Shown here in pieces: positions 26,630 to 48,781 of a DNA stretch of 64,000 bases. A model generated the notes under the pieces. The model made no database searches, was not told the origin of the DNA, and saw nothing but the letters and a program-made list of their open reading frames with translations. The stretch is from Thiogranum sp. (lineage in GTDB: Bacteria > Pseudomonadota > Gammaproteobacteria > DSM-19610): positions 8,378-72,377 of the forward strand of contig JASBSN010000013.1 in assembly GCA_030148915.1 (NCBI GenBank). The letters are read 5' to 3'. Numbering within the stretch: position 1 is the stretch's first letter; every line of letters starts with the position of its first letter. The position numbers and the translations under genes are program-made.

Positions 26630-26717
26630 TCGTGCTCCTGGGCTTCTCAAAGACGGGCTTTATTGGTTGAAGTTGATTGCGTCCATCAGCGTCCCAATCG
26701 CTTCACATTGCTCGCAG

Positions 26718-27095
26718 TTAACGAGTCTGAACAGACTTGTTGTTCGGATGTTCGCTGTCGGAAAGCTCTTTTGCCGTCCCCAGTAATTGTTCAATGCTCT
26801 GGGGCGTCAGTCCGGCCTCTTTGATGTATCGAATCAGATTCATGGCTTCTGGATTCTCGTGGAGGTAATCAACGATCTCCGGGTCCGTGGATGAGGAAAG
26901 CCGGAAAAGGACATCGGGATCGGCGGCGAGTGTTTTTGCCAACGCCTTGATAATCTCGGGACTTGGCGGGCGTTCTTTGCCGCGCTCAATGCGGCTAAGG
27001 TAGGCCGGTGATATTCCGACCAAACCTGCAGTTTCGCGCAGGCCCAAGTCTTGGGCGGTACGCAAATCCCGAATAGTCTCGCCAAACGCCTTCAT
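26718..27095 (-). CDS. XRE-family helix-turn-helix regulator
   Basis: FGETIRDLR...LRETA..VGISPAYLSRIERG..PPS pattern. Confidence 0.9.
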   Translation of the reverse strand: MKAFGETIRDLRTAQDLGLRETAGLVGISPAYLSRIERGKERPPSPEIIKALAKTLAADPDVLFRLSSSTDPEIVDYLHENPEAMNLIRYIKEAGLTPQSIEQLLGTAKELSDSEHPNNKSVQTR

Positions 27096-27245: not shown

Positions 27246-27452
27246 ATGCAAAATGAAGAAATGCTGAAGATCAAGGACGTTGCTGCGTTGCTAAAGGTCG
27301 GTGAAAAGACCATCTATTCCATGGCGCAATCCGGCGAGCTACCGGCATTCAAGGTCCGCGGGCAGTGGCGATTTTCCCGGAAGGATATTGATGACTGGAT
27401 CGTGAAGCAGAAGAACACAACCCACGATCTAGATAGGAACCATAGCCAATGA
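27246..27452 (+). CDS. excisionase-like HTH protein (MAD1-like)
   Basis: MLKIKDVAALLKV...IY.MAQSGELPAFKVRGQWRF (HTH_17); first gene of the MADS-type operon. Confidence 0.85.
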   Translation: MQNEEMLKIKDVAALLKVGEKTIYSMAQSGELPAFKVRGQWRFSRKDIDDWIVKQKNTTHDLDRNHSQ

Positions 27453-27479
27453 ATTCAACCTTCTGTAGCGGAGTTTGAT

Positions 27480-29549
27480 ATGGGAAAGAATAAGAAACAG
27501 GCGGAGAACACAATCGCTGCAGGATATACGCTCGACTATGTCTCCGGAGAACCAATTAAGGAAACCAAGAAAGAGCTGGTACGCCAGCGGGTCGCTCGTG
27601 CCCTGATCCATGAGTACGGCTTTTCACCGGAAGACATGGAGCTGGATTTCTCAATCGGTGGGCGCAAGAAGGTGGACGTCGCCATTTTTCATCATGGCGA
27701 GGAGCACACGATTGAAAACATAAGTCGCGCTGCGATCTGCCGGCCTGAGCCCAATGTCGGTAAGAACGCCGTGCGTATACGGGACTTTGATCAGGCTGCG
27801 AAGGACCTGGATGAACTTGAGAGCATCATGCAAGAGGTCGAGGCCATTAAGTACGGGTTATGGACAAACGGGCTCGAGTTTTTTTTCCTCGAGAAGGAAA
27901 AAAAGCGTTTCGAAACCAAGTGCAACCCGATAGGTGATTGGCCGATGGCAGAAGAGTCTGTCGGCACCAAAGAGGTCTTTTCCGATGCGCACACCCGTGT
28001 CGCTGACAACGAGATGCTCAAAATTACCTTTCGCCGCTGCCATAACTTCATCCATGGCAATGAGGGCATGCCGAAGGATGCAGCTTTCTGGCAGTTCCTG
28101 TATCTCATCTTCTGCAAAATGCATGACGAGAATCTACGCGCTAAACAGCGCAAAGCCTGGAAGCGCCGCTTTTGGGCTGGCCCTAAGGAACAGTTCGATC
28201 CTAAGGGGCGTAAGGAGATACGTGGGCGGATTGAGGAGCTTTTTACCGAAGTCAAAAAACAATACAAGAATATCTTTCGCGGTAACGAGGAAATAACCCT
28301 GTCCGACCGGGCGCTAGCTTTTATTGTATCCGAGCTGGCCAAATACGATTTCACCCGCACTGATGTGGATGCCAAGGGCGTCGCCTATCAGGAACTGGTG
28401 GGCGTCAATCTACGTGGCGACCGAGGCCAATACTTTACACCACGGGGAGTGGTGAAGCTTGTCGTGGAAATGCTCGATCCCAAAGAGAATGAAACACTGC
28501 TGGACCCTGCATGTGGCACCGGCGGTTTCCTGGTTGCCACGCTTGCTCATATGTTGAAGAAATTCCGGGATGAGCAGGATACATCGCCTGGCGATGAGAC
28601 CAGTACCGAATTCCTGAATGTTCATGAACGCTTGAAAGAGTACGCGGCCGCTAACGTCTTCGGGGCCGACTTCGATCCGTTCTTGATCCGCGCCGCACAG
28701 ATGAACATGGTGCTGGCGGGTGATGGCCGTGGTCACATCTACAACATCAACTCGCTTGAATTCCCCCTGGGGCACTTGGCAGACCTGACAAATGCCAAAA
28801 AAGAAATTCCACTCGGCTCGGTCGATATCATCGCCACCAATCCTCCATTTGGTTCGGACATCCCGATTACCGACAAGCACATCCTAGAGCAGTATGAACT
28901 GGCCCATAACTGGGAATCGGACGGGGAAGGTGGTTTCCGCAACACTGGCGTTTCTAAAGGCAGCGTCGCACCCGAGATTCTCTTCATCGAGCGCTGTATC
29001 AAATGGTTGAAACCAGGCGCTGGACGCATGGGTATCGTCTTGCCTGATGGTGTTTTGGGGAACCCGGCAGCGGAGTACATCCGTTGGTGGATTATGCGCG
29101 AAACGCAGGTGCTTGCCTCCGTCGATCTGCCAGTGGAGGCTTTTATCGCCGAAGCCAATGTCAACATCCTCACCAGCCTGCTGTTTCTGCGTCGCAAGAG
29201 TGACCAAGAAAAACGCGCGGAGGTATTAGGCGGCATTGAGGAGTACCCAGTCTTCATGGCGGTGGCGGACAAGGTTGGTTTCGACCGTCGTGGCAACAAG
29301 CTATACAAGCGCACGCCCGATGGTGAAGAAATCGTCGAACCTCGTCAGCATGAAGAAAAGTTCAGAATTAAGGGCGAGTGGGTTAAGCGGGTTCTTACAC
29401 GTAAAGAGAAGGTTGAAGATAACGACTTGCCTGTCATCGCTGAAAAGTACCGAGAATTTCTTGCAGAACTTGATGGATTGACACCTGCCAAGAAGAAATC
29501 ACCGGGTAGGGCGAAAGGGTCGGCCAACAAGAAGGTGGCGGTGCGATGA
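27480..29549 (+). CDS. N6-adenine DNA methyltransferase with N-terminal HsdR_N-like domain (MAD2-like, copy 1)
   Basis: RGQYFTP, LDPACGTGGFL (motif I), NPPF (motif IV, 28839-28850) and GIVLPDGVL. Confidence 0.9.
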   Translation: MGKNKKQAENTIAAGYTLDYVSGEPIKETKKELVRQRVARALIHEYGFSPEDMELDFSIGGRKKVDVAIFHHGEEHTIENISRAAICRPEPNVGKNAVRIRDFDQAAKDLDELESIMQEVEAIKYGLWTNGLEFFFLEKEKKRFETKCNPIGDWPMAEESVGTKEVFSDAHTRVADNEMLKITFRRCHNFIHGNEGMPKDAAFWQFLYLIFCKMHDENLRAKQRKAWKRRFWAGPKEQFDPKGRKEIRGRIEELFTEVKKQYKNIFRGNEEITLSDRALAFIVSELAKYDFTRTDVDAKGVAYQELVGVNLRGDRGQYFTPRGVVKLVVEMLDPKENETLLDPACGTGGFLVATLAHMLKKFRDEQDTSPGDETSTEFLNVHERLKEYAAANVFGADFDPFLIRAAQMNMVLAGDGRGHIYNINSLEFPLGHLADLTNAKKEIPLGSVDIIATNPPFGSDIPITDKHILEQYELAHNWESDGEGGFRNTGVSKGSVAPEILFIERCIKWLKPGAGRMGIVLPDGVLGNPAAEYIRWWIMRETQVLASVDLPVEAFIAEANVNILTSLLFLRRKSDQEKRAEVLGGIEEYPVFMAVADKVGFDRRGNKLYKRTPDGEEIVEPRQHEEKFRIKGEWVKRVLTRKEKVEDNDLPVIAEKYREFLAELDGLTPAKKKSPGRAKGSANKKVAVR

Positions 29550-31567
29550 ACGATCGAATTGATGACGTCAATGATGATCAGCAGGATGCTGCCGAAGAGA
29601 GCGGCTCCGATAATTTTTTCATCGACATTCTGACCGGCAACAAGGAGAGCGCCTCGGCCAAGAAGCTGCTGGTGCAGAAGGTTCTGCGTCAACTCATCGA
29701 GAGCTACGGCTTTGACCGGGACGATCTGGAGGTCAACTATAACCCCCAGATCCCCGGCCAGGGGCGCAAGCGCATTGACATCGCGATTTTCCGTCCCGAT
29801 GCCGAGCACAACAACGACAACCTGCAGCGGATTATCGTCTGCAAGAATCAGAAGAAGCGCGACAAGCTTCGTTCCATTACCGAGGCCGACGCCGACCTGC
29901 GTGAGCTCAAGGAGCTGCTGGAGCTGATCCCCGGCGCGACGCTGGGCATGTGGACAAACGGCCAGGAAGAGTTCCTGTTCCAGGTCGAGCGCACCCGCTT
30001 CGAGGTCCGGCCCAAGCCGCTGGGTGTGTGGCCGGTTCCTGGTGAACGTACCACCGATCTCGACCGCACGGGCGGTGTCATTCAGGTTAGCGCCGAAGCG
30101 GAGGATCTGGAAGACGCCCTGCTGCGCTGCCGTCAGTATCTGAACCGCAACCTGGGACTCGATCACAAGGATTCCTTCAAGCAGTTGGCCGTGCTGATGC
30201 TGGCCAAGATCCACGATGAGACCCTGCCCACCGGCGAGCGCAAATTCTGGATCAGGGGCGACGAGCCATTCACCGAGGTCGGCCAACAGGCCATTGCCCA
30301 GCGCATCAACGAATCCATTACCGCTGCCAAGGCCTGGCAGCCGAACCTGCTGACCCGTGGTTGGGATCTGACGCTGGAACCTCTCGAGACCGCACGCGTG
30401 GTGATGGAGCTGGCCCGTTACTCTCTGAGTGAAACCCAACCTCGTTTCCGTACTGGGGCCTTCCGTGCGGTCTCCCGCAGCGTGATGGACGGCCGTGAGG
30501 GCCGTTATCCCACACCGCTCAACGTGGCCGAAATGGCAGTGGATATGCTCGACCCACAACCCGGCGAACGCATCATGGACTGCTCCAGCGGCACCGGCAC
30601 CTTCCTGGCCATGACCGCCACACACATCTTCAAGAAAAAACTGGCGGCCATGGGCACCACGCCTGAAGAGCCCACCAACGAACAGATCCGCCAGGCGCAA
30701 AACGAAACCGCTGCTTGGGCGGCCAGCAACGCCTTGGGTTGCGACATCGATCCCTTCCTGGCCGTCGCCAGCCGGATGAATCTGCTGTTCACCACTGGCA
30801 ACCCGGGCCGCGTGTTCCGCATCGATGCCCGCACGTTCCCGGACGGTGATCTGGATGGCATCGAGGCGGCACGCCTGGCCATGCCACTGGGCAGCATGGA
30901 TGTGGTTCTGCTCAACCCCTGGTTCTCCACCCAAGAGACGGTGAGCGACACCTCCATTCTGGAGCGCTACGACCTGGGCAACAACTGGGAGCGCGACGAG
31001 GAAGGCGGATTCCGCAACACCGGCAATCTGAACGCCGGCGGCGTGCCGCCCGAGGTGCTGTTTATCGAGCGCGCCCTGCAATGGGTGAAGCCCGGCACCG
31101 GCCGCGTGGGCATCCTGTTGCCCGATGGCTTGCTGGGCAATCCCGGCGATGAGTACGTGCGCTGGTGGATTCTGCGCCACTGCGAGGTCTTGGCCTCGGT
31201 TGACCTGCCGGTGGAGCCGTTCAAGGTCACGGTCAAGGAATATGGCCTGACGCCCGCCTTGCCCAGTCTCCTGGTACTGCGCCGCCGCAGCCAGGAGGAG
31301 CTCATCAATACCGAGCACCCGGAATACAAGGTCTTCATGGCCGTGGTGGACCGGGCCGGTGTCGACGCCCGGGGAAATCTCCTGTTCCAGCGAGCCCCCG
31401 ATGGAGAGGAACTGGTTTTCGATGAGGAGGTGATCGAGCGGGTTCGAGAAGGTGGTGAAGTGGAAATCCGTCGGACTACACGCCGCAACCGCCGCGTTCA
31501 TGACGAGCTGCCGCTGGTGGCAGCGAAATACAAGGAATTTCGCGCAACCGGCGAGGTGACGTTATGA
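29546..31567 (+). CDS. second HsdM-like methyltransferase paralog with altered catalytic motif (MAD2-like, copy 2)
   Basis: GRYPTP, MDCSSGTGTFL, NPWF (30914-30925) and GILLPDGLLGNP; shares GGFRNTG and PE.LFIER blocks with copy 1. Confidence 0.85.
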   Translation: MNDRIDDVNDDQQDAAEESGSDNFFIDILTGNKESASAKKLLVQKVLRQLIESYGFDRDDLEVNYNPQIPGQGRKRIDIAIFRPDAEHNNDNLQRIIVCKNQKKRDKLRSITEADADLRELKELLELIPGATLGMWTNGQEEFLFQVERTRFEVRPKPLGVWPVPGERTTDLDRTGGVIQVSAEAEDLEDALLRCRQYLNRNLGLDHKDSFKQLAVLMLAKIHDETLPTGERKFWIRGDEPFTEVGQQAIAQRINESITAAKAWQPNLLTRGWDLTLEPLETARVVMELARYSLSETQPRFRTGAFRAVSRSVMDGREGRYPTPLNVAEMAVDMLDPQPGERIMDCSSGTGTFLAMTATHIFKKKLAAMGTTPEEPTNEQIRQAQNETAAWAASNALGCDIDPFLAVASRMNLLFTTGNPGRVFRIDARTFPDGDLDGIEAARLAMPLGSMDVVLLNPWFSTQETVSDTSILERYDLGNNWERDEEGGFRNTGNLNAGGVPPEVLFIERALQWVKPGTGRVGILLPDGLLGNPGDEYVRWWILRHCEVLASVDLPVEPFKVTVKEYGLTPALPSLLVLRRRSQEELINTEHPEYKVFMAVVDRAGVDARGNLLFQRAPDGEELVFDEEVIERVREGGEVEIRRTTRRNRRVHDELPLVAAKYKEFRATGEVTL

Positions 31568-32979
31568 GCAGAAAGTTTCAGTGTAAGGTTGTGCCAAGTA
31601 TCTGGATTGAACACAACGGTCGCCGCCTTGACTGCGGGCCTTATGTGTCAGGAGCGATAGAAGCAAAAGAGCTTCTGAGTCAGATGAACACAACTCCGCT
31701 GACGGATTTGACCACTGGGCATAAGGGCGGGATCTACAACGGTTCACCCTTTGTCCGGAACTATGTGGAAGATCCAGATCATGGCGTTCCATTTTTGACC
31801 ACATCCTCTTTGCTTCAGGCTGACCTGACCAATCTTTCACTGCTGAGCAAGCGAGATGCCCGCTCCAGGCAGCTTAGTTTCCTCGAAATAAAGCCGGGTA
31901 TGACTCTCATTACCTGCTCTGGAAGCATCGGCAGAATGGCCTATGCCAGGTCAGACATGAAGGGAGTTTGGTCAAATCAGGACATCATGAAGGTTGTCCC
32001 AAATCCAGACTTAATTAAATCTGGATATCTCTATGCCTACCTATGCAGCAAGTTCGGAGTCCCTCTTATTGCCTCCGGAACATATGGCGCAATTATTCCG
32101 CATATTGAGCCGCAGCATATCGCAGATCTCCCTGTCCCGCGCCTTGGCATCGTGGAAGATCAGGCTCATGAGCTAATTCAACAAGCCGCAAACAAACGCG
32201 TTGATGCCAGCAGAATCATTGCGAGAGCTATCGCGCAATTAGAAAGTGCCGCGGGCTTACAAGCGCTACCTTGCAGTAAGTCAGATGGCATTCCACTCAG
32301 CTTGAGTGTCACACCTTCTTCGAACTTGATGAAGCGGATGGACGGCGCCTTTCATAGTTTGTTTCATCGTGATGCTGTAAGGGCTCTCGAAACCGCATCG
32401 GTTCCGACGACCACTGTAGCGAATAAGGCGGTATCCATAGTCGAGCCAAAACGATTCAAGAGAATCCAGATTGATGATCCAGAGTTTGGTATTCCAATGT
32501 TCGGAACATCGGCATTGATGTGGGCGGACCCACAGCCCAGCTATCTCATACCAAAAAACATGAGTGACATTGATGAGCTGTTGGTAGATCAGAAGACAGT
32601 GCTCGTTCCTCGATCTGGGCAGATATCTGGCATTATCGGCACTGCCGTCCTTCCTTATGGCGCCATAGTTGGATCTGCTGTCTCAGAAGATGCAATTAGA
32701 ATTAATTGCTCGAATGAGATTATTGCCGGTTTTCTTTTCATTGTACTTAGGTCCGAGTATGGGCGCCGCCAACTCAAAGCTCGCGCATACGGCTCCTCCA
32801 TCCCGCATCTAGATGTTAACCAGATCGGGGAAACTCTGGTGCCTGACCTAGATGATGAGGTCATCGAGGAGATTGGTGCAATGGGCCTACAGAGCGCCAA
32901 ACTTCGACATGAGGCCATTGAACACGAAAGCAAAGCCCGCCGCCTCGTAGAACGTGCAATCGAAGAGGGCGGCCGCTAA
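31564..32979 (+). CDS. HsdS-like specificity subunit (MAD5-like)
   Basis: Two TRD-like repeats with LITCSGSIG/LVPRSG.I.G and YGAIIPHIE...LPVP/YGSSIPHLD...VP conserved blocks. Confidence 0.88.
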   Translation: MSRKFQCKVVPSIWIEHNGRRLDCGPYVSGAIEAKELLSQMNTTPLTDLTTGHKGGIYNGSPFVRNYVEDPDHGVPFLTTSSLLQADLTNLSLLSKRDARSRQLSFLEIKPGMTLITCSGSIGRMAYARSDMKGVWSNQDIMKVVPNPDLIKSGYLYAYLCSKFGVPLIASGTYGAIIPHIEPQHIADLPVPRLGIVEDQAHELIQQAANKRVDASRIIARAIAQLESAAGLQALPCSKSDGIPLSLSVTPSSNLMKRMDGAFHSLFHRDAVRALETASVPTTTVANKAVSIVEPKRFKRIQIDDPEFGIPMFGTSALMWADPQPSYLIPKNMSDIDELLVDQKTVLVPRSGQISGIIGTAVLPYGAIVGSAVSEDAIRINCSNEIIAGFLFIVLRSEYGRRQLKARAYGSSIPHLDVNQIGETLVPDLDDEVIEEIGAMGLQSAKLRHEAIEHESKARRLVERAIEEGGR

Positions 32980-35900
32980 TGGCAAAAGTCATACCCATCG
33001 GGCAACCCGCGAACGAATCTGAGCGCCAGGCCATCGGCTTCCTTCGGGACCATCTTCCCGAGGGGTGGCTGATCTTCCACAACTTCGAGATGCGCCAAGG
33101 GCAGGAGGTGTTCGAAATCGACATCGCCATCCTCGCGCCTCATGCAGTGTATCTGGTGGATGTCAAAGGGACGCGGGGCAACATCGATGTGTATGGTTCT
33201 AAGTGGTATCCCGAGGGGCGGCAGCCGTTCTTCTCGCCGTTGGCCAAGCTGCGCAGCCATGCCAAGACGATGGCCACCATCATCCGCGAAAGCAACACCG
33301 GCCTGATCGAGCTGCGCAAGGCCCATGTGCATGCCGCCGTGCTGCTCACCGCCGATGATGCCGCCGTGTTGGACCAGGCGGGCATCGACAGTCCGGACGT
33401 GACCGACTTCAAGCACTGCCTGAAATACTTCCGCGACGCGAGCCGCATTCCAGACAGCCGGCTGGATAACATAACCCGCTTCAAGTCCCAGATCGCCAAG
33501 GCGATCACCGGCAACGCTAGACCTAAGAGCGCGGCGCTGGTGTTCCGCGACTGGCAGGTGGAAGAGAAGTTGGGCGGCACCGACCGCTACACCGAATACC
33601 GCGCCAAGCACAACCTGTTGGGTAAGAGTGGCGGCATGGCCCGCCTGCGGGTCTATCAGGCCGACCCTTACCAGGACGAGGCGGCCCGCAAGGAAGAGTT
33701 CAAGAAGATCAGCAACGCCTATCGCGCCGTGGCACACATGCCGACTCACGCCAACGTGCTGGCGGTGAAGGATCTGTTCGTCTCCGATGACGAAGATAAG
33801 GTGGTGCTGGTCACCGAGGATCTGCCCGGCCAGGCCCTGCGTCTGCACATCAATAAGGCCTCAATGGCGCTGACATTTGACCAGAAACTCCAGGTGATGC
33901 GCGACGTGCTGTCGGCCCTGGACCACGCGCACCGGCATGAGGTGATTCACCGCAACCTCACCCCGGATGCCATCCTGGTGACCAAGGGCGGCCAAGCACG
34001 GGTGACCGGTTTCGATTTCGCCCGGGTGGGCAAGAACCGCACCTCCACCATCGCCGATCAGGTGGTGGATGATCTGGAAGTCGCCTATCAGGCTCCGGAG
34101 TGCTTCAAGGACCCGACCCAGGCCAGCATTGCCTCCGACCTCTATGCCGCCGGGCTGATTTTTTATGAGCTGCTGACTGGTGAGCTGCCCTTTGAAAGCG
34201 TCGACCAGATGATGGAGGCCGACGGTAGATTCCCGATGAAGCCCTCGGAGCACAAGCCGGACCTGCCCAAAGGGATCGATGAGTGGCTGCAGAAGTTCTG
34301 CGAGTTTGACCCCGAGGACCGTCATACCAGCGCTGCCATCGCCCGCAAAGTCCTGGATGATCTGATTCTGCCTGAGGCCAAGAGCGACTCGGCCCCAGAT
34401 GCGAGCGGCCCCGCCGTGGTTGTGCCGCAGCTCCCGGATGACCTGATGAGCCTGCCACAGGATTTCATTCTGGCCGATCGCTTCCGTATTCAGAAGAAGC
34501 TCGGCAGCGGCGGCTTTGGGGTCGCCTACAAGGTATTCGATTCACTTGGCGATGTGGTGCGGGTCATCAAGTTGGTGACCAGGGACCGCCGCAGCGTGTA
34601 CGAACGGCTGCGCCGCGAATACAAGACCCTGACCAATCTGCCCGACCATCCGCATGTGGTGAAGGTGATCTGGGCGGATCGCATGGCCGACGCCAAGCAG
34701 ACACCGTACATCGTTTTTGAATACGTGGAAGGTCTGGACGTCTCCGATCTGATCGACGCCGAGGCGCTGTCGCTGGATGATGCCGTGCGCATCGTGCGTG
34801 AGGCTGCCGATGGGCTGGCCCATCTTCACAAGCACGGCGTTTACCATCAGGACGTCAAGCCCTCCAATCTGCTGTGGACCGATAAAGGCGTCCGCATCAT
34901 CGATTTCAACGTCGCGGTCTCCGAAAACGACGAGGTTCGAGGCGGTGGCGGTACGCGCCGCTACCTGCCGCCGGATTACGATTGCTCCTCCGAGCCGGAT
35001 GCTTCAGATCGGATGGACCGAGATCTCTATGCCCTGGGCATCTCCTTCTACGAGTGCCTGACCGGCAAGTATCCTTTCGACGACCCCACACCGCCGATCA
35101 AGACTCAGCCCAAGGACCCTAAGCAGTTCAAGGGCTGCGCCGACCTCAGCTCTTCGCTGATCAATGTGCTGGTAAAGATGATCGCGCCGGAGCGCGAGAA
35201 CCGCTTCGCATCGGCGGAAGAGTTCTTGATCGCCCTAGCAGAGGTCAAACGCCTGCGCTCGGTGCTGACGACCGGCGAGATTGGTGCCGGACCCAAGGTG
35301 GTATCCAAGCTGGGCTTCGAGCCTATCAAGCCAAACACCAACCCCTTTGTCACCCATCTTCTGACTCTCTATAGCCAGAGTCAGGTGTCCAACGCGGGTA
35401 CCCGTGGCCTCGACGAAATTGGCAAGGCTACCTACGTACCGACCTATCTGGACGAGAAGCTCAAGCCCGCACTGCTCAAGGGAGAGTTCCGCCTGGTCAT
35501 CATCAGCGGTAACGCCGGAGATGGTAAGACGGCCTTCATTCAGCAGTTCGAGGCATTTGCCGAGAGCAAGGGCGCACAGATACGGCGCGGTGCGAATGGA
35601 GCCGTTTTCCAGCTCAAGGGACACGCCTACCAGAGCAACTACGACGGCAGCCAGGATGAAGGCGACGAGCGCAATGATGCCGTGCTGCAGAAATTCTTTG
35701 CCCCCTTCGCGGGCAAGGACGCTTCCGGATGGCCCGAGAATCAGACCCGCCTGATCGCTATCAACGAGGGTCGTCTGGTCGATTTCTTCCTGGAGCATGA
35801 AGAAGAGTTCGCGGTGCTCGCCAAGCAGATCCAGCACGGCTTGGCCGGAGTCGCTCCGGAAGGCGGTGTCGCGGTCATCAACCTCAACCTGCGGTCGGTG

Positions 35901-37130
35901 GTCGCCGAACCCGAGGAAGGTCAGCCTTCGATTCTGGAGCGCCTGATTGCCCGCATGACGAAGCAGGAATACTGGCAGGCCTGCGAAAAGTGCGATCTCA
36001 AGGGCAAATGCTTTGCCTATCACAACGCCCGGACCTTCCAGGACTCGGTTGCCGGTCCCAAGGTAATTGAACGTTTGAAGATGCTCTATACCATCACCCA
36101 CCTGCGCGGCCGACTACATATCACCATGCGCGACCTGCGGTCGGCGCTGGGATTCATGCTGGTGGGCACCCAGGATTGTGACGGCATTCACCAACTGTAT
36201 CAGAACGGCGGTGAAGAGACCCAGAATCGCATCCTTGACGGCTTCTATTTCAACTCGTGGCTTGGGGGGGCGGAAGGTTCCAATGACCGGTTGATTTCGC
36301 TGCTGCGCGAGATCGACGTCGCCGAAGTCAGCAACCCCGATCTGGACCGCGAACTTGGCTTCCTTGACCCCAAGACCAAGGCCATGAGCCGCTTCTCATT
36401 TGCGGAGCGCGCCGGGTACGACGATGAACTGGTAGAGACGCTGTTTCGTAATCTGCCTCGCGATTACTCGTCGAAGCACCGTGCTCGACTGATCGCCAAG
36501 CACCGGAATTACCTCTCTCACATGCGCCGGCGCCATTTCTTTGAGCGCCGCGACATCGGCTGGAAAGAGATGCTGCCTTATGGAAGCATCGATCCTTTTC
36601 TGGATGCCATTAAGCAGCCTGGAGCGAAAAGCACTGATGAGGTTACCGCCATGCTCCGGGCTATCAACCGGGGCGAAGGTCTGAGCGATCCGGCGCGGTT
36701 GGGCAACCAGTTGGCGCTGCGTGTCCGGCAGGTGGACAAGGGCACGATTCGCAGTTACCGCCTCTTTGATGGGGACCGTTCCACGCTCCGCACTGAGCAG
36801 GAAACGCTGGCCCATCCTTTCCTCGAGTGCCTGTCTCAAGCGCTAGTGCTGCTTTACGACTCCGGCGACGGACACAAGGCCAGCCTGCGCATCAATCTCG
36901 ACATCTATGAAATGCTGATGCGGCTCAACAATGGCTACAGGCCCAGCATCGAGGAACAGGAAGGTTTCTTGTTGAGTTTGGCGGTATTTAAGAATCTTCT
37001 GGCTTCAGTTCCCTACAAAGAAGTTTTGCTAACTAAAGCGGGACACAAATTCTATGAAATCCGTCGGGAGGACGACGGGTTGCTGGCGATGAGAGTTTCA
37101 GAGAAGGGGGCTGATTACCATGTCAATTAA
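32979..37130 (+). CDS. NERD + tandem Ser/Thr kinase domains + P-loop ATPase (MAD6-like)
   Basis: NERD EID...LVDVKG; kinase 1 HRNLTP..ILV; kinase 2 GSGGFG..HQDVKPSNLL..DF; ISGNAGDGKT Walker A. Confidence 0.88.
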   Translation: MAKVIPIGQPANESERQAIGFLRDHLPEGWLIFHNFEMRQGQEVFEIDIAILAPHAVYLVDVKGTRGNIDVYGSKWYPEGRQPFFSPLAKLRSHAKTMATIIRESNTGLIELRKAHVHAAVLLTADDAAVLDQAGIDSPDVTDFKHCLKYFRDASRIPDSRLDNITRFKSQIAKAITGNARPKSAALVFRDWQVEEKLGGTDRYTEYRAKHNLLGKSGGMARLRVYQADPYQDEAARKEEFKKISNAYRAVAHMPTHANVLAVKDLFVSDDEDKVVLVTEDLPGQALRLHINKASMALTFDQKLQVMRDVLSALDHAHRHEVIHRNLTPDAILVTKGGQARVTGFDFARVGKNRTSTIADQVVDDLEVAYQAPECFKDPTQASIASDLYAAGLIFYELLTGELPFESVDQMMEADGRFPMKPSEHKPDLPKGIDEWLQKFCEFDPEDRHTSAAIARKVLDDLILPEAKSDSAPDASGPAVVVPQLPDDLMSLPQDFILADRFRIQKKLGSGGFGVAYKVFDSLGDVVRVIKLVTRDRRSVYERLRREYKTLTNLPDHPHVVKVIWADRMADAKQTPYIVFEYVEGLDVSDLIDAEALSLDDAVRIVREAADGLAHLHKHGVYHQDVKPSNLLWTDKGVRIIDFNVAVSENDEVRGGGGTRRYLPPDYDCSSEPDASDRMDRDLYALGISFYECLTGKYPFDDPTPPIKTQPKDPKQFKGCADLSSSLINVLVKMIAPERENRFASAEEFLIALAEVKRLRSVLTTGEIGAGPKVVSKLGFEPIKPNTNPFVTHLLTLYSQSQVSNAGTRGLDEIGKATYVPTYLDEKLKPALLKGEFRLVIISGNAGDGKTAFIQQFEAFAESKGAQIRRGANGAVFQLKGHAYQSNYDGSQDEGDERNDAVLQKFFAPFAGKDASGWPENQTRLIAINEGRLVDFFLEHEEEFAVLAKQIQHGLAGVAPEGGVAVINLNLRSVVAEPEEGQPSILERLIARMTKQEYWQACEKCDLKGKCFAYHNARTFQDSVAGPKVIERLKMLYTITHLRGRLHITMRDLRSALGFMLVGTQDCDGIHQLYQNGGEETQNRILDGFYFNSWLGGAEGSNDRLISLLREIDVAEVSNPDLDRELGFLDPKTKAMSRFSFAERAGYDDELVETLFRNLPRDYSSKHRARLIAKHRNYLSHMRRRHFFERRDIGWKEMLPYGSIDPFLDAIKQPGAKSTDEVTAMLRAINRGEGLSDPARLGNQLALRVRQVDKGTIRSYRLFDGDRSTLRTEQETLAHPFLECLSQALVLLYDSGDGHKASLRINLDIYEMLMRLNNGYRPSIEEQEGFLLSLAVFKNLLASVPYKEVLLTKAGHKFYEIRREDDGLLAMRVSEKGADYHVN

Positions 37131-38802
37131 AGGACGCGACAAGGAATTCAGAATCCCAAAAGTTTCTTATCTCGATTTCAAGCATATCGAGATGGATCGT
37201 GTTCTGACAATGTTGTTTCCGCGTCTGAAATATGACGGTTACGGAAGCCGCCGGCCGCCCCGAGGAGGGGATCTTTCAGTTGATGAGTTTCTGGAGGACT
37301 TTCTGGAACATCCTGAATGGTTCGCCGGTTTCGACAAGCATCCGGACGTTGCTCGCGCCTGGATCGAAACTGACTTGATGGATATGGTGAATCGCGGCAA
37401 AAGTAACCAAGCTCTTGCTGCTCCACGTCCTCTTCACGGCAACACCTATAAGTTTCGTAATGCGAAGCACACCCGTGACTATGGCGCGGCCGAGCAGATT
37501 TATTGGATGCTTTTCTATGCCCGAAAAGGCAAGGGACAAGCGGCGCGTGACGCCTTGAAGCGGTTCTTCTTCCCGGGGATCGACCTGGTGACGGATCGCT
37601 ACGACCCCAACGCATCCGTCGATGTGGAAACGCAGGCCATCCTGCGTCTGGATCACCAAGTCAGCCAAGACATGAAGGACTCCAAAGAACCTTCACGTTT
37701 CCAACCGCTGTGCATCGGCCAGGCCGACATCATGGCCGACGACATTCTGCGGCTTCTGGCCTATGAGCCCTATATTCCGCGCTCCGTGCTGGTCGATTAC
37801 CTCAAGACCCTGATGGCCTTCCACCTAGCGCTCTACCACCTCAAGCTACTGCAGATGCTGCCCAAGCTGGTGAAGCAGCGCGCCGGCAACGATCTCTGCA
37901 CCACGAAGGAATGTCCGATTAATCCAGGCCTCGACAATGCGCTGGAAGGCTGTCCATACCGGGTGGCGCTGATCGTGGATATGGGCGACGTCAACAATCC
38001 GCATATGGCCGAGCTGGCGCGCAAGTCAACGGACCGACTCTATCGCCAGATTCCAGCCTTCGTGCAGGCCAATTTCATCGTTAAGAAGCTCGATGAGATG
38101 GCGGAATATTTGAGCAAAAAGACGGGCAAGCTTGCCACGCCAGGGAGCGGTGTGTTCAGCGTCGGCGATCTGGTTTACCTGTTGAAGGCTGAGCACGACG
38201 CCGAACGCCAAGCCTACTTCAAGTTTCGCCTGGCCAGCTTGATAGAGGAGTCGACCTCGGGGAATGAGGACGTCGATCCGGAGATCCGGGACGTCACCGC
38301 CATGGGGCTCGGCGAGTTTGAATCCTTTATCGAAATCTTGATGGCGTATCGTGGCAAGTATCACCGCCAGTACATCACGGAATGCCTGGATTCGCTTCTA
38401 CTGAAGAACAAGGAGAACGGCCTTCTCGCCCAACCTCGAACCAAGGGAAGTCCCCGGCGGTTTGTGCTGGGGAGCAAGCTACTGGAGGTGCTGCTTCAGG
38501 TGGCCGTGCTCACTCAGGATAGTGGGCGCTTCGTGACCCGCGAGGTCCGCATCGAGGAGTTGCTAGCATTCCTTGGAAACCGCTACGGCATTCATATTGA
38601 CCGGTTACCGGAAGGAGTCCAGGCCAATGGCAGCATTCTGGACAGACGCGCCTTGCGCCTCAACGTGGAAGCCTTCAAGCGTCGCCTGCGCGAAATCGGG
38701 TTCTACGAAGACCTGTCGGATGCTTACGTGACCCAGAAGGTTTCTCCCCGCTATGCAATTGAGAGAAATCACGGAACAGATAAGAACAAGAGGCACCCAT
38801 GA
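37120..38802 (+). CDS. MAD7-like protein (positionally DptG-like)
   Basis: 560 aa, coupled between the MAD6- and MAD8-like genes. C-terminal LREIGFYEDLSDAYVTQ resembles DptG-type termini. Confidence 0.7.
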   Translation: MSIKGRDKEFRIPKVSYLDFKHIEMDRVLTMLFPRLKYDGYGSRRPPRGGDLSVDEFLEDFLEHPEWFAGFDKHPDVARAWIETDLMDMVNRGKSNQALAAPRPLHGNTYKFRNAKHTRDYGAAEQIYWMLFYARKGKGQAARDALKRFFFPGIDLVTDRYDPNASVDVETQAILRLDHQVSQDMKDSKEPSRFQPLCIGQADIMADDILRLLAYEPYIPRSVLVDYLKTLMAFHLALYHLKLLQMLPKLVKQRAGNDLCTTKECPINPGLDNALEGCPYRVALIVDMGDVNNPHMAELARKSTDRLYRQIPAFVQANFIVKKLDEMAEYLSKKTGKLATPGSGVFSVGDLVYLLKAEHDAERQAYFKFRLASLIEESTSGNEDVDPEIRDVTAMGLGEFESFIEILMAYRGKYHRQYITECLDSLLLKNKENGLLAQPRTKGSPRRFVLGSKLLEVLLQVAVLTQDSGRFVTREVRIEELLAFLGNRYGIHIDRLPEGVQANGSILDRRALRLNVEAFKRRLREIGFYEDLSDAYVTQKVSPRYAIERNHGTDKNKRHP

Positions 38803-41800
38803 GTGACGCGTTCACCAAGCTTTCCCAGGACACATTGAACGCGGCGGTTGCTGGTCTGCTGTGCCCGCGTATCGAAGCGATTCTGGGTGACCGAGGCCCA
38901 GGCCATTGCATGCGGGTTACCGATCTCGATGACGACGTAATGGAGTCGGTCTGCAAGGAACTGCGCCGAACCCGGATCGACGGGAACATTTTTATCCTCG
39001 GCAGCCACGACCAGGAGGGCCAACCATACCGGGTGACCTCCACCAAGCTGGTGGAGTTACGCAACCCTGACGCCAACGGCGAGCTGCGTCAGCCTTTGCT
39101 GGTCTTCATACCGACCTCGCTCCGCACCAGCGCCGAGGATTCTTTTGGTGTGGCGACTTTCGAGGAGCTGACCTTCACCATGATCTACGAGGATCTTATC
39201 AGTTCACTGCTTGACCGGCTGCCGTCAACGCTGGTCGGCTATGTGCGCGATCTCTTGGGCATCCTCACGGAGGAGGGGTGGTTTTTTGCCGACGACATTT
39301 CACGCGTGCGGTACCTTCTTACGGCGCTCGAAAACGGAATTGATGGAGAAACCCTCGGGGCCAGTCTGTATGAATTGACTTTGATTCCGGACTTCAGGCT
39401 TTTTGCCGATCCCGGGATGGTCAATGGCAAGATTCGCCGGAACCTTGGTAGCGTCCGCAGCCTGATGGCTTCTCACAAGTCAGTTCGCGGCCGCATCGCG
39501 GATCTGGGACTCAGCGACAAAGCCCTGGAGTCACGCCTGTTCAGCTATTTTGAGAAATACGATGTCCAGGAGCCGGAATCGTGGACGCCTCCCATCGCGA
39601 CCGACAAGAGTTGGTGGAGTATATCGTTCGACAAGTGGACGTTCCAGCAAGAGCTTTCTCTGGATAAGGTTCTGTTGACGGTATTAGAAACGGATCTTCC
39701 GGTAGTGCAGGAAGATGAAACCGATGATCAGTTATCTGAGCTGATTGGGCAACAGGTACTGATTCCCAATGATCGTCGGAAAATGAACGTGGTCTTTGAA
39801 GTCAAGCCGCACCCGAGCAAGGTCAGCGGTCTAGACCACTTTACGGTACAGATTATCTCGCAAAACGATGGTCCAGTCGGGAAATCCAAGAAAGTTAAGG
39901 CCTGGACACCGACCCGCTTCCAATGCACGACTAACCTGGCCAAGCTCAACAAGATCGAATTCGAAGAGGGATGGCATTTCATCCGCGTCCTGCCTTGGAC
40001 TGGCGATGGCGATCCGATCCCGCTGGAAGCGGATTCTAGTTCCGAGGGCGCTAAACGCTCCTATGAGAGTGAGCCTTTCTACGTCCTGCCCGGTGGCAGC
40101 ATCGAGGAAGAACCGCCGCAACGAGCCATACCCATTGAACAGAGTCTGGAGCATGCGCGTTTCCGGCTGCAATTGACTGCGCTGGGAGATGAGCGCGATC
40201 CGGAGGAGATTGCCATCAGCGGTGTCGTCTGGGCTGAGGGCAGTCGGTCAAAGAGGGCCGCCCGTCAGGAAACCTTACTGGCGAAATTCGGACGTGAAGG
40301 CGCTGTTCAGATTCCGCTCTCGCGTATGCTCAAAACCATAGAGCAGCGTATTTTGGCAGAGCCCAAACATCCGTCGGGCTGGCGAATGCAGATCAATCTC
40401 GATACCGCCGAGCCGCCCTCCGAGGTTGGACTTACACTGCCAGCTTCTGCCGCGATGGCATCCTTTCTGGCCGCTCGAGAAGAATTCTTCGCAGCAGTGC
40501 GTAAAGACACTGCCGAGCTAATCATGCAAGGTCTTTCGTTCCGCGACTCGGAAAAGGAGTGCCTTGCGTATGCCGAGGCTTACCTCGACTTGGTAAGGAA
40601 TCTTGTCCGTCAGGCTGAGACAACTTCTGGGGCCGAGCGCCAGCATCACCTGCAAGCCCTCCGAAACGTTTTGGCCGTTGATTCCATTCATGTCATTTTG
40701 ACCGATTTCCGTGGAAGACACCGGGAAGCAGTTTTGGTTTCCCCAACCCATCCGCTCCGCTCTTTATGGCTGAGCAGTTGGGTTACTTTGGGCAAGGACT
40801 GGATTGAAACAATCAAGGCCGGCGGAAAGGATCACATTCCTCATGTCCGCTCTGCGCTGCTGGATGGTCTCGTGCCGTCAGCCTATCCCGTGGGTGTGCC
40901 CGTCGAGGATGGCCGCATCTTTACACCGGTCGACAACTTCAATGCGTTCTGGGCGCTCTATGCCCCAACAACCGAGGAAAATTCACGCGGTTTGATGGCG
41001 GAAATATGTTCGGCTTTGGGTTTGGCTGAGCCTTCCACCGCAGGAACGGATATTTCCGGGAGGGTCATGGCAGACAAGATCGAGCGCTATCTCTCCCAAC
41101 ATCCGTATGTGCGGGAGCTATCGCTGAATATCTTCAATCCAGGTGCCGGTTCGGTGATTGCGGATGCTCTGCTATCGCTCCAGCAGAAGCGTGAGCATGC
41201 CGATTTGCGCTACGATATCCGACTCTTTACCTCCGACCCTGACTCGCCGGTTTTGGGTGAGGCGCTAGAATCGATGGTCCGTCCCGGATCAACCGTGAAC
41301 GAGGCCGCTGATGCGTTTGCGACCTCTACGGGCAGTCATCTGTTCTCCAAGCTCAATTTGGCCAAGCACACGCTGAGCGAATTTCACGCAAATGCGAAGG
41401 AATTCCCTGCACACATTAGCGTTCTCCTGGACGTATTTCCCGCCGAGGAGCTCTCGGTAGCTGAAAAACCGATGGGGGTAGCCCCATTGCACGGCCTGAT
41501 ACAAGATTTTGATACCGAATTTGTTGACGACGATTCTGGTACTTACTGGAATAAGCGGCCGGTTGTTGGGCGCTCTCTTGGTGCGGATAACCACGCGGCA
41601 TGCTTCGATTTACTGTCATCCCTGAGCCGACACCTCTGTTTTGCGACCTCGGCGGTCGCAGCCTCGGGTGCCAGTTTTAAAGCCGTGCCCGTCGTGACCC
41701 TTGGCCTCGATGTGGCTCAACGAGAACTGATCTACGAAGTCCACCAGATCAGCGACTGGGTGTTCACCATCGACCGAAACATGGGGATTGAGTTCTTCGA

Positions 41801-47536: not shown

Positions 47537-48781
47537 TGTACAAGTCTCGTATTTCCCCGACACCCGGGACCTCCGCGCGTAGTCTAAGCCGCATCTGGGA
47601 TTGTTGTCTCCTCTGAGGCATCCGGAATGAACGGCGGCAGCTCCTCAACGCCGAGTGCATCGCGCAACGCCTGCGCCGGTGTGCGACCTTTCAGGCGATA
47701 GCCTTGATGCGTCCGTTCGAGGTTGTAGTAGTTGATGAAGGTGTCCAGGTCGCGCTGGATCTCGTCTGGCTGGATGTACCAGGTCTGGCGTCCGGCCACA
47801 CGGAAGCACTCGTCGAGCAAGGTGCGGTTCATGCGTTCGACGAAGCCGTTGGTGCGCGGTGAGCGGATGCGGGTGGTGCGGTGCTCGATGTCGTGCATGG
47901 CGAGCAACAACTCGTAGGGATGTTGCTCTTTCACCCCGCAGAACTCGCGGCCGTTGTCCGTGAGCACGGCGCCGACGGATACGCCCAAGGCCTCGTAGAA
48001 CGGCAGCACGCGTTCATAGAAGGTGTCGGCGGCGGTGATGGGCATCTTCGAGGTGTAGACCTTGGCGAAGGCGAGCGAGCAGAACACGTCGACCACGACC
48101 TGGACGTAGACTTTGCCGACGCCTTTGAGCGTGCCCCAGTAAAAGGTGTCCTGGTTCAGCAGTTCGCCGGGCCGGTTGGCTTCGACGTGACGCATGCGGA
48201 AGTCGCAGGAGTGCCGTTCCAGGAGACGGATCTGCTGATCGTTGAGCACGAACGTGGTGTCCTGCGCGTGCTGTTCCAGACGCATCAGCCGTTTGTGCCG
48301 GGTGAGCAGATCGTGCCGCTGCCAGACGCCGCGCACCCCGGACGGGCTGACGTTCACGCCTTGCAGGCGCAGCTCGTTGGCGACGCGTTGAGCACCGATG
48401 GTCGGGCGTTCGAGGGCCATGGCCAGGATCCGTTCCTCGACCTCGGGTGACACCCGGTTGGGGTGCGGGTGGCGGGGACCGCGACGGCTCTCCACCAGGC
48501 CGGCCACGCCGCCCATCTGGAAGGCGCGCCGGACTTCGTAGAAGGTGTCGCGGTGGTAGCCCATGATCTTGCAGGCCTTGGACACGTTGCCAAGCTCCTC
48601 GGCCAGTTGCAGCAAAGACAGCTTGCGCTTGGTACTCTGTGTCAGTGTGGTCATCGGGTCTCTCCTGAGTAGTTGGTTGGGTCGCACTTACCAATCTACG
48701 ATGGAGATCCCGGTGGCTGCACCTGTCACCCTCGATGGGGCGCCAGGGGCGGCACTGTCGGATAAATACTCAACTCATTCA
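47537..48781 (-). mobile_element. IS481-family insertion sequence, complete, with 7-bp target duplication
   Basis: Imperfect 26-bp terminal IRs (TGTACAAGTCTCGTATTTCCCCGACA vs TGAATGAGTTGAGTATTTATCCGACA, 18/26). CGCCACC at both 47530-47536 and 48782-48788. Confidence 0.9.
47584..48654 (-). CDS. IS481-family transposase
   Basis: KLSLLQLAEELGNVSKAC HTH; DDE triad in NQDT, TDNGREF and GFVERMNRT. Confidence 0.95.
   Translation of the reverse strand: MTTLTQSTKRKLSLLQLAEELGNVSKACKIMGYHRDTFYEVRRAFQMGGVAGLVESRRGPRHPHPNRVSPEVEERILAMALERPTIGAQRVANELRLQGVNVSPSGVRGVWQRHDLLTRHKRLMRLEQHAQDTTFVLNDQQIRLLERHSCDFRMRHVEANRPGELLNQDTFYWGTLKGVGKVYVQVVVDVFCSLAFAKVYTSKMPITAADTFYERVLPFYEALGVSVGAVLTDNGREFCGVKEQHPYELLLAMHDIEHRTTRIRSPRTNGFVERMNRTLLDECFRVAGRQTWYIQPDEIQRDLDTFINYYNLERTHQGYRLKGRTPAQALRDALGVEELPPFIPDASEETTIPDAA

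What the first reader, a model, noticed from the sequence alone, without database searches (positions are those of the whole stretch)
29546..31567. Methyltransferase paralog with NPWF instead of NPPF
Copy 1 has the canonical DPACGTGGF and NPPF; copy 2 has DCSSGTGTF and NPWF. Heterodimeric type I M1M2S enzymes are known in which NPPF makes m6A and NPPY makes m4C. NPWF could be a third chemistry, or a dead scaffold producing hemimethylated sites.
Basis: partly seen in the sequence, partly recalled or inferred. Interest (0 to 1): 0.65.

Follow-up and report, generated by a model that had tools for sequence, protein, structure and literature searches.

The report
Second MADS methyltransferase with NPWF motif
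The gene is the second of two paired methyltransferase-like subunits in a widespread variant of the known MADS anti-phage system; its odd NPWF motif is conserved in every relative found, so it marks an untested, probably altered function and not an error.

Summary
Observation confirmed. Window 29546-31567 (+) encodes a 673-aa paralog (38% identity) of the upstream methyltransferase (27480-29549). It has DCSSGTGTF and NPWF where copy 1 has DPACGTGGF and NPPF.

The pair is not a classical type I system. It sits in a MADS operon: XRE, MAD1, MAD2a, MAD2b, MAD5 (S), MAD6 kinase, MAD7, MAD8. MAD3 and MAD4 are absent from the whole genome. The same operon occurs in about 60 species across many phyla and in 10 E. 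coli RefSeq genomes, where PGAP names both genes MAD2.

NPW[F/Y] is present in all about 165 orthologs (57-96% identity) and in no other representative of the wider family. Copy 1 is the ortholog of canonical MAD2. Copy 2 sits on a very long stem branch, then evolves under strong purifying selection (dN/dS about 0.07).

Its differences from the family consensus cluster in the AdoMet/base-pocket motifs X, I, III and IV. That remodelled pocket is the most constrained part of the protein, and the ribose-binding acid varies only D/E.

Decay, private mutation and sequencing error are excluded. Whether copy 2 methylates, only binds, or reads methylation is untested. My best reading is a ligand-binding, non-conventional partner of MAD2a on MAD5. 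This is a new variant of a known kind.

The parts
26718..27095 (-). Divergent XRE-family HTH regulator in front of the operon
   Evidence: Pfam HTH_31/HTH_3. Conserved in this position and orientation in most related loci at 62-90% identity. E. coli records annotate a helix-turn-helix gene at the same place.
27246..27452 (+). MAD1, small excisionase-type HTH protein (68 aa)
   Evidence: ORF found. It is 72% identical to the E. coli protein that PGAP annotates as mads1.
27480..29549 (+). MAD2a (copy 1): canonical MAD2 methyltransferase, with an HSDR_N_2-like N-domain plus a gamma-class N6-MTase; DPACGTGGF (nt 28503-28529), NPPF (nt 28839-28850)
   Evidence: NCBIfam NF047738 scores 1037.7 bits (cut-off 720), Pfam N6_Mtase 107 bits. 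It is 60% identical to the single MAD2 of a canonical MAD3/MAD4-containing operon on a Piscinibacter plasmid.
29546..31567 (+). MAD2b (copy 2, the finding): diverged MAD2 paralog with DCSSGTGTF (nt 30578-30604) and NPWF (nt 30914-30925; Trp codon 30920-30922)
   Evidence: NF047738 scores 810.7 bits, Pfam N6_Mtase only 42 bits. ATGA overlaps link it to both neighbouring genes. The AF2 model has pLDDT 79 and its best full-length structural match is the BsaXI RM subunit.
31564..32979 (+). MAD5, type-I-like specificity (S) subunit with two target-recognition halves
   Evidence: NF047740 scores 486 bits. The N-terminal half is semi-conserved and the C-terminal half hypervariable across 49 loci.
32979..37130 (+). 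MAD6, NERD domain plus two protein-kinase domains
   Evidence: NF047741 scores 860 bits; Pfam NERD and Pkinase x2.
37120..38802 (+). MAD7 (DptG/SspG-like)
   Evidence: NF047733 scores 675 bits; PADLOC mad7, with a weak SspG match.
38799..44255 (+). MAD8 (DptH/HerA-like ATPase, 1818 aa)
   Evidence: NF047742 scores 233 bits; PADLOC mad8, with weak SspH/DndH/HerA matches.

Best explanation
The gene encodes MAD2b, a neofunctionalised duplicate of the MADS methyltransferase MAD2. It belongs to a widespread, horizontally mobile MADS subtype with the order XRE, MAD1, MAD2a, MAD2b, MAD5, MAD6, MAD7, MAD8 and no MAD3/MAD4. SHOWN: (1) MAD2a is the ortholog of canonical MAD2, and MAD2b is an extra paralog always in the same operon. 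(2) After duplication MAD2b changed rapidly. Its departures from family-wide conserved residues cluster in the AdoMet/target-base pocket: motif X YFTP to YPTP, motif I DPACGTGG to DCSSGTGT, motif III NSL to DAR, motif IV TNPPFG to LNPWFS. (3) Since then it has been under strong purifying selection, strongest in that pocket. It keeps the GxG loop, the ribose-binding carboxylate (D or E only), Asn and Pro-1 of motif IV, and three of the four base-cage residues; the fourth, a Pro, has become Trp. INFERRED: MAD2b still binds AdoMet or a similar nucleoside and a flipped base. It sits with MAD2a on the two-lobed S subunit MAD5, either as an asymmetric M1-M2-S core (as in PacII-type type I enzymes and BsaXI-type (RM)2S enzymes) or as an alternative M2-S complex sharing the same S. 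Its role is then not ordinary m6A writing. MAD2a writes the protective m6A. MAD2b holds or probes the site, most likely sensing its methylation state or licensing the complex, and couples recognition to the MAD6-MAD7-MAD8 effector branch.
For: System identity: NCBIfam and PADLOC hits above cut-off for MAD2 (twice), MAD5, MAD6, MAD7 and MAD8. PGAP gives the same names in E. coli. MAD3 and MAD4 are absent from the 99%-complete genome.
Fixed architecture: all loci with enough flank among the 60 recovered, from more than 10 phyla, show the same gene order. ATGA stop/start overlaps join M1/M2 and M2/MAD5.
Orthology: the canonical Piscinibacter MAD2 is 60% identical to M1 and 38% to M2. In the tree the M2 clade has 100 support, a stem of 1.4 changes per site and short internal branches, and it nests with M1 plus canonical MAD2 (support 99).
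Motif: NPW[F/Y] is in all about 165 orthologs and in no other family representative.
Pocket-focused change: of 70 family-conserved columns, M2 changes 17. Twelve of these lie in motifs X, I, III and IV, by my own assignment of columns to motifs (Fisher p = 7e-4).
Pocket constraint: entropy is 0.19 bits in the pocket motifs versus 0.62 in the rest of the MTase domain (p = 5e-8). The motif II acid is 42 D and 5 E. D427, R429, N457, P458, W459, F460 and S461 are invariant in 47 sequences.
Selection: dN/dS is about 0.07, like MAD6 and MAD7.
Fold: the AF2 model has pLDDT 79, with the MTase core mostly 80-95, and its best matches are BsaXI RM, HsdM and PacII M subunits.
Cage mapping: in PacII the base cage is the motif X loop Phe, the second Pro of NPPY, Tyr, and the motif VIII Phe. 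The PacII alignment shows the loop aromatic corresponds to the Tyr retained in M2 (Y321). The only cage change is therefore Pro to Trp.
Against: No biochemical or methylome data for this subtype could be reached. Catalytic status, AdoMet binding and subunit stoichiometry are all inferred. Asn and Phe of motif IV, the Pro whose carbonyl binds the amino group, and the cofactor loop are intact, so ordinary methyl transfer is not excluded. Strong conservation of motif residues can also be structural. In the published single-MAD2 system, both strands are methylated without any second paralog, so a separate 'reader' is not obligatory for MADS. A few loci carry a damaged M2 with otherwise largely intact genes (L051, L054, L057). 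This could be assembly error or tolerated loss.
Confidence: 0.45

Rival explanations
1. MAD2b is a fully active DNA adenine methyltransferase. MAD2a and MAD2b each methylate one half-site of the bipartite MAD5 target in an M1-M2-S enzyme, and NPWF is simply a tolerated variant of NPPF.
For: The catalytic Asn, the first Pro and the stacking Phe are invariant. The GxG loop, motif II acid, motifs V-VIII and the motif VIII Phe are retained. Type I M1M2S enzymes with two active, different M subunits exist. Purifying selection is strong.
Against: Known active M1/M2 pairs differ only subtly in their catalytic pockets (NPPF/NPPY, AGEF/AAEF). MAD2b has replaced 12 of about 24 universally conserved pocket-motif residues in four motifs at once. 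No other representative among the 150 best 50%-identity representatives of the wider family tolerates a non-Pro at this position. Single-MAD2 MADS already methylates both strands, so a second writer has no obvious need.
Confidence: 0.3
2. MAD2b is a catalytically and cofactor-dead structural scaffold (METTL14-like). It only fills the second M position on MAD5, so sites become hemimethylated.
For: The Pfam N6_Mtase score drops from 107 to 42 bits. Motifs X, I, III and IV are all altered. A bulky Trp replaces a cage-lining Pro.
Against: The altered pocket is the most constrained region of the protein, and the ribose-binding acid varies only D/E. A ligand-free scaffold would not need this. The GxG loop and the base cage are kept.
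Confidence: 0.12
3. MAD2b has a different chemistry or substrate: m4C or another base, or a protein amide such as a MAD6-8 component.
For: The pocket is remodelled but constrained. Small motif IV changes switch m6A to m4C in type I systems. From general knowledge, (N/D)PPY enzymes also methylate glutamine amides (PrmC/HemK).
Against: There is no direct evidence. The protein keeps the whole HsdM/BsaXI-like DNA-enzyme architecture and pairs with a DNA specificity subunit.
Confidence: 0.1
4. NPWF is a private mutation, sequencing error or sign of a decaying pseudogene.
For: None found.
Against: About 165 orthologs from many phyla carry NPW[F/Y]. TGG differs from CCN by at least two bases. The ORF is intact with dN/dS about 0.07.
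Confidence: 0.01

Closest known systems
MAD2 of the methylation-associated defence system (MADS) of Pseudomonas aeruginosa SMC4386 (Maestri et al., bioRxiv 10.1101/2023.03.30.534895; MAD3-MAD4 structure PMC13662399)
   Same: Same operon family, with MAD1, MAD2, MAD5, MAD6, MAD7 and MAD8 all above NCBIfam cut-offs. Copy 2 itself passes the MAD2 model (810 > 720 bits). [quoted passage not shown]
   Different: The published system has one MAD2 plus the MAD3/MAD4 ATPase-nuclease. Here MAD3/MAD4 are absent and a second, strongly diverged MAD2 with NPWF lies between MAD2 and MAD5. No paper found describes the altered motif or tests the second copy.
Non-canonical type I M1M2S methyltransferases (Morgan et al. 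2016, PMC5100572; PacII structure, PMC9613975)
   Same: Two different HsdM-like subunits are encoded next to one two-TRD S subunit, and motif IV differs between the paralogs. PacII M chains are among the structural matches.
   Different: PacII-type M2 keeps NPPY and is an active m4C enzyme. Those systems have HsdR. Here motif IV has Trp for the second Pro, four pocket motifs are changed, each subunit carries an extra N-terminal nuclease-like domain, and the effectors are MAD6-8.
BsaXI type IIB RM subunit (PDB 8W0P/8W2P)
   Same: It is the best sequence and full-length fold match. It has an N-terminal PD-(D/E)xK-like domain fused to a gamma-class MTase and works with a separate S subunit as (RM)2S.
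   Different: BsaXI uses two identical, active RM subunits. In MAD2a and MAD2b the (D/E)xK acid appears replaced (I-C-R and V-C-K, by inspection), and MAD2b has the NPWF pocket.
Catalytic/non-catalytic methyltransferase pairs such as METTL3-METTL14, and the division of labour in the EcoP15I Mod dimer (own knowledge, not tested here)
   Same: They share the idea of one writer subunit plus one paralogous or identical subunit that binds substrate but does not methylate.
   Different: METTL14 has lost cofactor-binding features, whereas MAD2b keeps them under constraint. There is no evidence yet that MAD2b is inactive.

Membership tests
MADS defence system | Adjacent MAD6 (kinase), MAD7 and MAD8, which are mandatory in the authors' MacSyFinder model | tested here: met
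   NF047741 scores 860 bits, NF047733 675 bits, NF047742 233 bits, all above cut-off. The model definition was read.
MADS defence system | MAD2 N6-methyltransferase plus MAD5 specificity subunit | tested here: met
   NF047738 (two genes) and NF047740 are above cut-off.
MADS defence system | MAD3 ATPase and MAD4 Toprim-like nuclease (accessory in the model, essential in the type strain) | tested here: not met
   No hit above cut-off in the whole genome: NF047739 best 20.6 bits, PDLC04136 none. They are also absent from the related loci and from the E. coli records.
MADS defence system | Methylation-dependent anti-phage activity | not testable with these tools
   Needs phage and methylome experiments.
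MAD2 (NCBIfam NF047738 equivalog) | Full-length score above the curated cut-off | tested here: met
   Copy 2 scores 810.7 bits against 720. Copy 1 scores 1037.7.
MAD2 (NCBIfam NF047738 equivalog) | Orthology to the characterised MAD2 (same function implied by 'equivalog') | tested here: not met
   Copy 1, not copy 2, groups with canonical MAD2 (60% versus 38% identity). Copy 2 forms a separate clade on a 1.4 changes-per-site stem.
Gamma-class N6-adenine DNA methyltransferase | Class I MTase fold with motif I GxG and the motif II acid | tested here: met
   Pfam N6_Mtase scores 42 bits (GA 20.4). DCSSGTGTF and D400 (D/E) are present. The AF2 model matches HsdM/BsaXI.
Gamma-class N6-adenine DNA methyltransferase | Motif IV (D/N/S)-P-P-(Y/F/W) | tested here: not met
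   The motif is N-P-W-F, invariant in the clade. All other family representatives in which motif IV was located have NPP[FYW].
Gamma-class N6-adenine DNA methyltransferase | AdoMet-dependent methyl transfer to adenine N6 | not testable with these tools
   Needs an enzyme assay or methylome.
Type I M1M2S (m6A/m4C) R-M systems | Two distinct M genes with one S gene | tested here: met
   Gene order is M1, M2, S with overlapping stop/start codons.
Type I M1M2S (m6A/m4C) R-M systems | M2 with NPPY, and an HsdR restriction subunit | tested here: not met
   M2 has NPWF. No HsdR is in the operon; MAD6-8 follow instead.
Type IIB (BsaXI-like) RM subunit | Active N-terminal PD-(D/E)xK nuclease fused to the MTase | tested here: inconclusive
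   The architecture and fold match. By inspection of the aligned third strand, the acid of (D/E)xK is Ile/Val in both copies. There was no profile-level or structural check of the active site.

The most novel reading that the evidence does not exclude
MAD2b is a bacterial pseudo-methyltransferase 'reader'. It shares the specificity subunit MAD5 with the writer MAD2a, binds AdoMet, and flips the target adenine into a Trp-reinforced cage without methylating it. It thereby tells unmethylated from m6A DNA and licenses the MAD6-MAD7-MAD8 effectors. This MADS subtype would then have split 'write' and 'read' between two paralogs, in an operon that has no MAD3/MAD4 module.
Probability: 0.25. Interest if true: 0.8.

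Novelty: new variant of a known kind. Interest (0 to 1): 0.5.

Why it matters
MADS is a recently described defence system whose recognition-to-restriction logic is still unknown. The two-MAD2 subtype appears to be common: about 60 GTDB species from many phyla carry it, as do enterobacteria. RefSeq currently gives both genes the same name and the same implied function. Showing that the second copy is a distinct, frozen lineage with a remodelled but constrained catalytic pocket gives a precise handle for experiments (W459, P322, R429, N457). These could reveal how methylation state is read in MADS, or extend the known sequence space of motif IV in amino-methyltransferases. It also argues for a separate family model and name (MAD2b) in annotation pipelines.

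Tried and rejected
(1) Private mutation or sequencing error: rejected by the ortholog survey and the two-base codon difference.

(2) 'MAD2b functionally replaces MAD3/MAD4': weakened. A Hymenobacter plasmid MADS has a single MAD2 and neither MAD3/4 nor MAD2b. Locus L037 has an AAA_21/AAA_15 ATPase plus a 282-aa gene inserted between M1 and M2; this ATPase is not MAD3 by NCBIfam (31 bits against a 420 cut-off).

(3) Linking the asymmetric conservation of MAD5 (semi-conserved N-half, hypervariable C-half) to the M1/M2 asymmetry: rejected. The same pattern holds against the MAD5 of a single-MAD2 canonical operon.

(4) 'The motif X cage Phe is lost in MAD2b and compensated by Trp': rejected. Alignment to PacII shows the cage aromatic (F171) corresponds to the retained Tyr, and the F-to-P change is the neighbouring residue.

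(5) Literature: no paper uses 'NPWF' in this sense. The final MADS paper is not held. No paper on MAD2/MAD5/MAD6 biochemistry was found.

(6) Methylome evidence for strains carrying the operon could not be reached with these tools.

The position of W459 relative to the pocket could only be inferred by homology.
Full report
OBSERVATION. The ORF at 29546-31567 (+) encodes 673 aa. It aligns over its whole length with the upstream 689-aa ORF (27480-29549) at 38% identity, E 2e-148. Copy 1 has DPACGTGGF (residues 342-350) and NPPF (454-457). Copy 2 has DCSSGTGTF (345-353) and NPWF (457-460), in the same alignment columns. The Trp codon TGG (nt 30920-30922) differs from any Pro codon by at least two bases.

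WHAT THE LOCUS IS. Pfam finds HSDR_N_2 plus N6_Mtase in both copies: 107 bits in copy 1 and only 42 bits in copy 2. NCBIfam and PADLOC identify the whole block as a methylation-associated defence system (MADS). MAD2 matches twice (1037.7 and 810.7 bits, cut-off 720). It is followed by the MAD5 specificity subunit, the MAD6 NERD/kinase protein, MAD7 and MAD8. A 68-aa MAD1 lies at 27246-27452, and a divergent XRE gene at 26718-27095.

MADS was described in P. aeruginosa SMC4386 as an eight-gene operon, mad1-8. There a single mad2 gives m6A on both strands of TCAGNNNNTCC, and mad3/mad4 encode an OLD-like ATPase-nuclease. In this window MAD3 and MAD4 are missing, and neither is found anywhere in the 99%-complete genome. 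All junctions from MAD2a to MAD8 overlap; M1/M2 and M2/MAD5 are ATGA overlaps. This suggests co-translation of subunits of one machine.

HOW GENERAL IT IS. A scan of one genome per GTDB species returned 60 loci. They come from Pseudomonadota, Desulfobacterota, Acidobacteriota, Chloroflexota, Bacillota, Actinomycetota, Verrucomicrobiota, Patescibacteria and others. Every locus with enough flank has the same order: XRE(-), M1, M2, MAD5, MAD6, MAD7, MAD8. Most proteins are 80-95% identical, but MAD5 is only 34-59% identical.

Ten complete E. coli genomes carry the same operon. PGAP names both methyltransferase genes 'mads2 ... MAD2', and no mads3/4 is annotated. The E. coli copy 2 is 91% identical and also has NPWF. 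[quoted passage not shown] I found no text that describes the second copy or its motif.

IS NPWF CONSERVED? Of the 120 closest 90%-identity clusters, 119 have NPWF and one has NPWY. All 45 full-length orthologs from the genome loci have NPWF, including the most distant at 57-60% identity. In an exhaustive HMMER search of 1.84 billion representatives, the copy-2 lineage collapses to the query's own cluster plus one other full-length representative (60% identity). The next hits are 37% identical. Every other full-length representative in which I could locate motif IV has NPP[F/Y/W]. NPWF is therefore a fixed, derived character of one tight lineage.

ORIGIN. A Piscinibacter plasmid carries a canonical MADS: MAD1, one MAD2, MAD3, MAD4, MAD5-8, with MAD3 and MAD4 above NCBIfam cut-offs. 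Its MAD2 is 60% identical to copy 1 and 38% to copy 2, and has NPPF. A Hymenobacter plasmid has a single MAD2 and neither MAD3/4 nor a second copy.

In a maximum-likelihood tree the copy-2 clade has support 100. It sits on a stem of 1.4 changes per site with short internal branches, and joins the clade of copy 1 plus canonical MAD2 (support 99). The copy-1 and copy-2 subtrees have the same deep order. So copy 1 (MAD2a) is the ortholog of the characterised enzyme. Copy 2 (MAD2b) is a duplicate that changed fast once and has then co-diverged with its partner.

WHAT CHANGED AND WHAT WAS KEPT. I took the 70 alignment columns that are at least 80% conserved in 95 non-MAD2b family members. MAD2b keeps 53 and changes 17. 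By my own assignment of columns to motifs, twelve of the 17 lie in four motifs:
- Motif X: D to R, G to T, and YFTP to YPTP.
- Motif I: PAC to CSS, and G to T.
- Motif III: SL to AR.
- Motif IV: T to L, P to W, and G to S.
The clustering gives Fisher p = 7e-4.

Kept are the Asp and GxG-F of motif I, the Gly and acid of motif II, Asn-Pro and Phe of motif IV, and motifs V-VIII. Within the MAD2b clade the pocket motifs are far more constrained than the rest of the MTase domain (mean entropy 0.19 versus 0.62 bits, p = 5e-8). The motif II acid, which binds the AdoMet ribose in this enzyme class (established knowledge), varies only between D (42 sequences) and E (5). D427, R429, N457, P458, W459, F460 and S461 are invariant. 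dN/dS against the window copy is about 0.07, the same as MAD6 and MAD7.

In the PacII M1M2S-DNA structure the flipped base sits in a cage made of a motif X loop Phe, the second Pro of NPPY, the Tyr, and a motif VIII Phe. The Asn side chain and the first Pro carbonyl hold the amino group. Mutating the loop Phe or Asn/Tyr abolishes or strongly reduces that subunit's activity. Aligning MAD2a to PacII shows that the loop aromatic corresponds to the Tyr of Q-Y-F-T-P, which MAD2b keeps as Y321. MAD2b thus keeps the hydrogen-bonding elements and three cage residues; the fourth, a Pro, is Trp. The equivalence of the motif VIII Phe rests on motif position only.

An AlphaFold2 model (pLDDT 79, MTase core mostly 80-95) has normal class I topology around motif IV. 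Its best full-length match is the type IIB RM subunit of BsaXI, followed by HsdM and PacII M chains. BsaXI is also the best PDB sequence hit for both copies. By inspection, both copies lack the acid of the (D/E)xK nuclease motif in their N-terminal domains (I-C-R and V-C-K). I did not test this further.

INTERPRETATION. The data exclude error, private mutation and pseudogene decay. They also argue against a cofactor-blind scaffold, because a pocket with no ligand would not be the most constrained region and would not keep a D/E-only ribose-binding acid. They argue, less strongly, against an ordinary second m6A writer. Known active M1/M2 pairs differ only subtly in their catalytic pockets (NPPF/NPPY, AGEF/AAEF). 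No other family representative in which motif IV was located tolerates a non-Pro here. And single-MAD2 MADS already methylates both strands.

My best reading (0.45) is that MAD2b is a ligand-binding, non-conventional partner of MAD2a on MAD5. It would act either in one asymmetric M1-M2-S core or in an alternative complex sharing the S subunit. It would hold or probe the target site and couple recognition to MAD6-8. The rivals are an active half-site writer (0.30), a dead scaffold giving hemimethylation (0.12), and a different chemistry or substrate (0.10). None can be settled without a methylome and biochemistry.

LEADS THAT FAILED. MAD5 has a semi-conserved N-terminal half (median 54% identity, essentially one cluster) and a hypervariable C-terminal half (23%, 15 clusters). 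The same pattern appears against the MAD5 of the canonical single-MAD2 operon, so it says nothing about MAD2b.

The idea that MAD2b replaces MAD3/4 is weakened by the Hymenobacter operon, which has neither. It is also weakened by L037, where an AAA_21/AAA_15 ATPase and a 282-aa gene sit between M1 and M2.

A few loci have a damaged MAD2b: L051 has an internal deletion, L054 a stop codon, and L057 two frameshifts. L058 and L060 show general decay. Most of these are low-coverage assemblies or MAGs, so I draw no conclusion from them.

EARLIER NOTES OF THIS SCAN. Notes on this genome and on two others describe the same pair and the same motif and reach a similar reading. I treated them as leads. 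The conservation survey, orthology, pocket statistics and PacII mapping above were done independently here.

VERDICT. This is a real, strongly conserved feature in a known system. It is a new variant of a known kind, with a clear experimental handle and moderate interest.

Noticed in passing
window 31564-32979 (MAD5) and 48 orthologs in L001-L060: The S subunit is asymmetric in conservation. Residues about 46-215 have median 54% pairwise identity and form one cluster. Residues about 216-440 have 23% identity and fall into 15 sequence types. The same holds against the MAD5 of a canonical single-MAD2 operon. MADS may therefore keep one half-site reader nearly constant and swap only the other.
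   Followed up: partly
L037 6984-10004; L006 4256-5395; L054 8762-9883; L025 8865-9992; L046 8322-9485: Extra genes are inserted in-operon between MAD2a and MAD2b or between MAD2b and MAD5. They are an AAA_21/AAA_15 ATPase plus a 282-aa protein (L037), Fic-type proteins with HPFxxGNGR (L006, L054), and putative metallopeptidases, one with a weak M78/IrrE-like match (L025) and one with an HExxH motif (L046). These junctions look like docking sites for accessory modules.
   Followed up: partly
window 27246-44255: The operon is compositionally mosaic. GC3 is 0.61 for MAD2a, 0.77 for MAD2b, 0.50 for MAD5, 0.75 for MAD6, 0.68 for MAD7 and 0.62 for MAD8. Against the closest loci, MAD2a has saturated dS (about 2) while MAD2b and MAD6 have dS of 0.3-0.7. 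This suggests recombination that exchanged the MAD1-MAD2a segment.
   Followed up: partly
window 27480-29549 and 29546-31567, N-terminal about 160 residues: Both MAD2 copies carry an HSDR_N_2 (PD-(D/E)xK-like) domain with an invariant Asp and an invariant Cys, but a hydrophobic residue where the (D/E) of (D/E)xK is expected (I-C-R and V-C-K). It is probably a non-catalytic nuclease-fold domain.
   Followed up: partly
window 21845-26650 (-): A 1601-aa sacsin-type ATPase with a NOV_C/DUF3883 C-terminal domain matches the PADLOC Tiamat TmtA model over its full length (2245 bits). It lies directly upstream of the MADS operon.
   Followed up: no
window 44468-47390 (+): A TIR-domain protein (Pfam TIR_2) overlaps a 540-aa ORF with no family hit, directly downstream of MAD8 and followed by an IS481 transposase (47584-48687, -). 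Another note of this scan reads the pair as SPARTA (TIR-APAZ plus short Argonaute).
   Followed up: no
window 29345-31501 (-): A 718-aa antisense ORF spans almost the whole MAD2b gene. It is most likely a by-product of the high GC3 (0.77) of the sense frame and not a gene.
   Followed up: no
L027 11927-13074: An IS3-family transposase is inserted at the MAD2b/MAD5 junction in a Rhodocyclaceae MAG. It truncates the MAD2b C-terminus and the MAD5 N-terminus.
   Followed up: no
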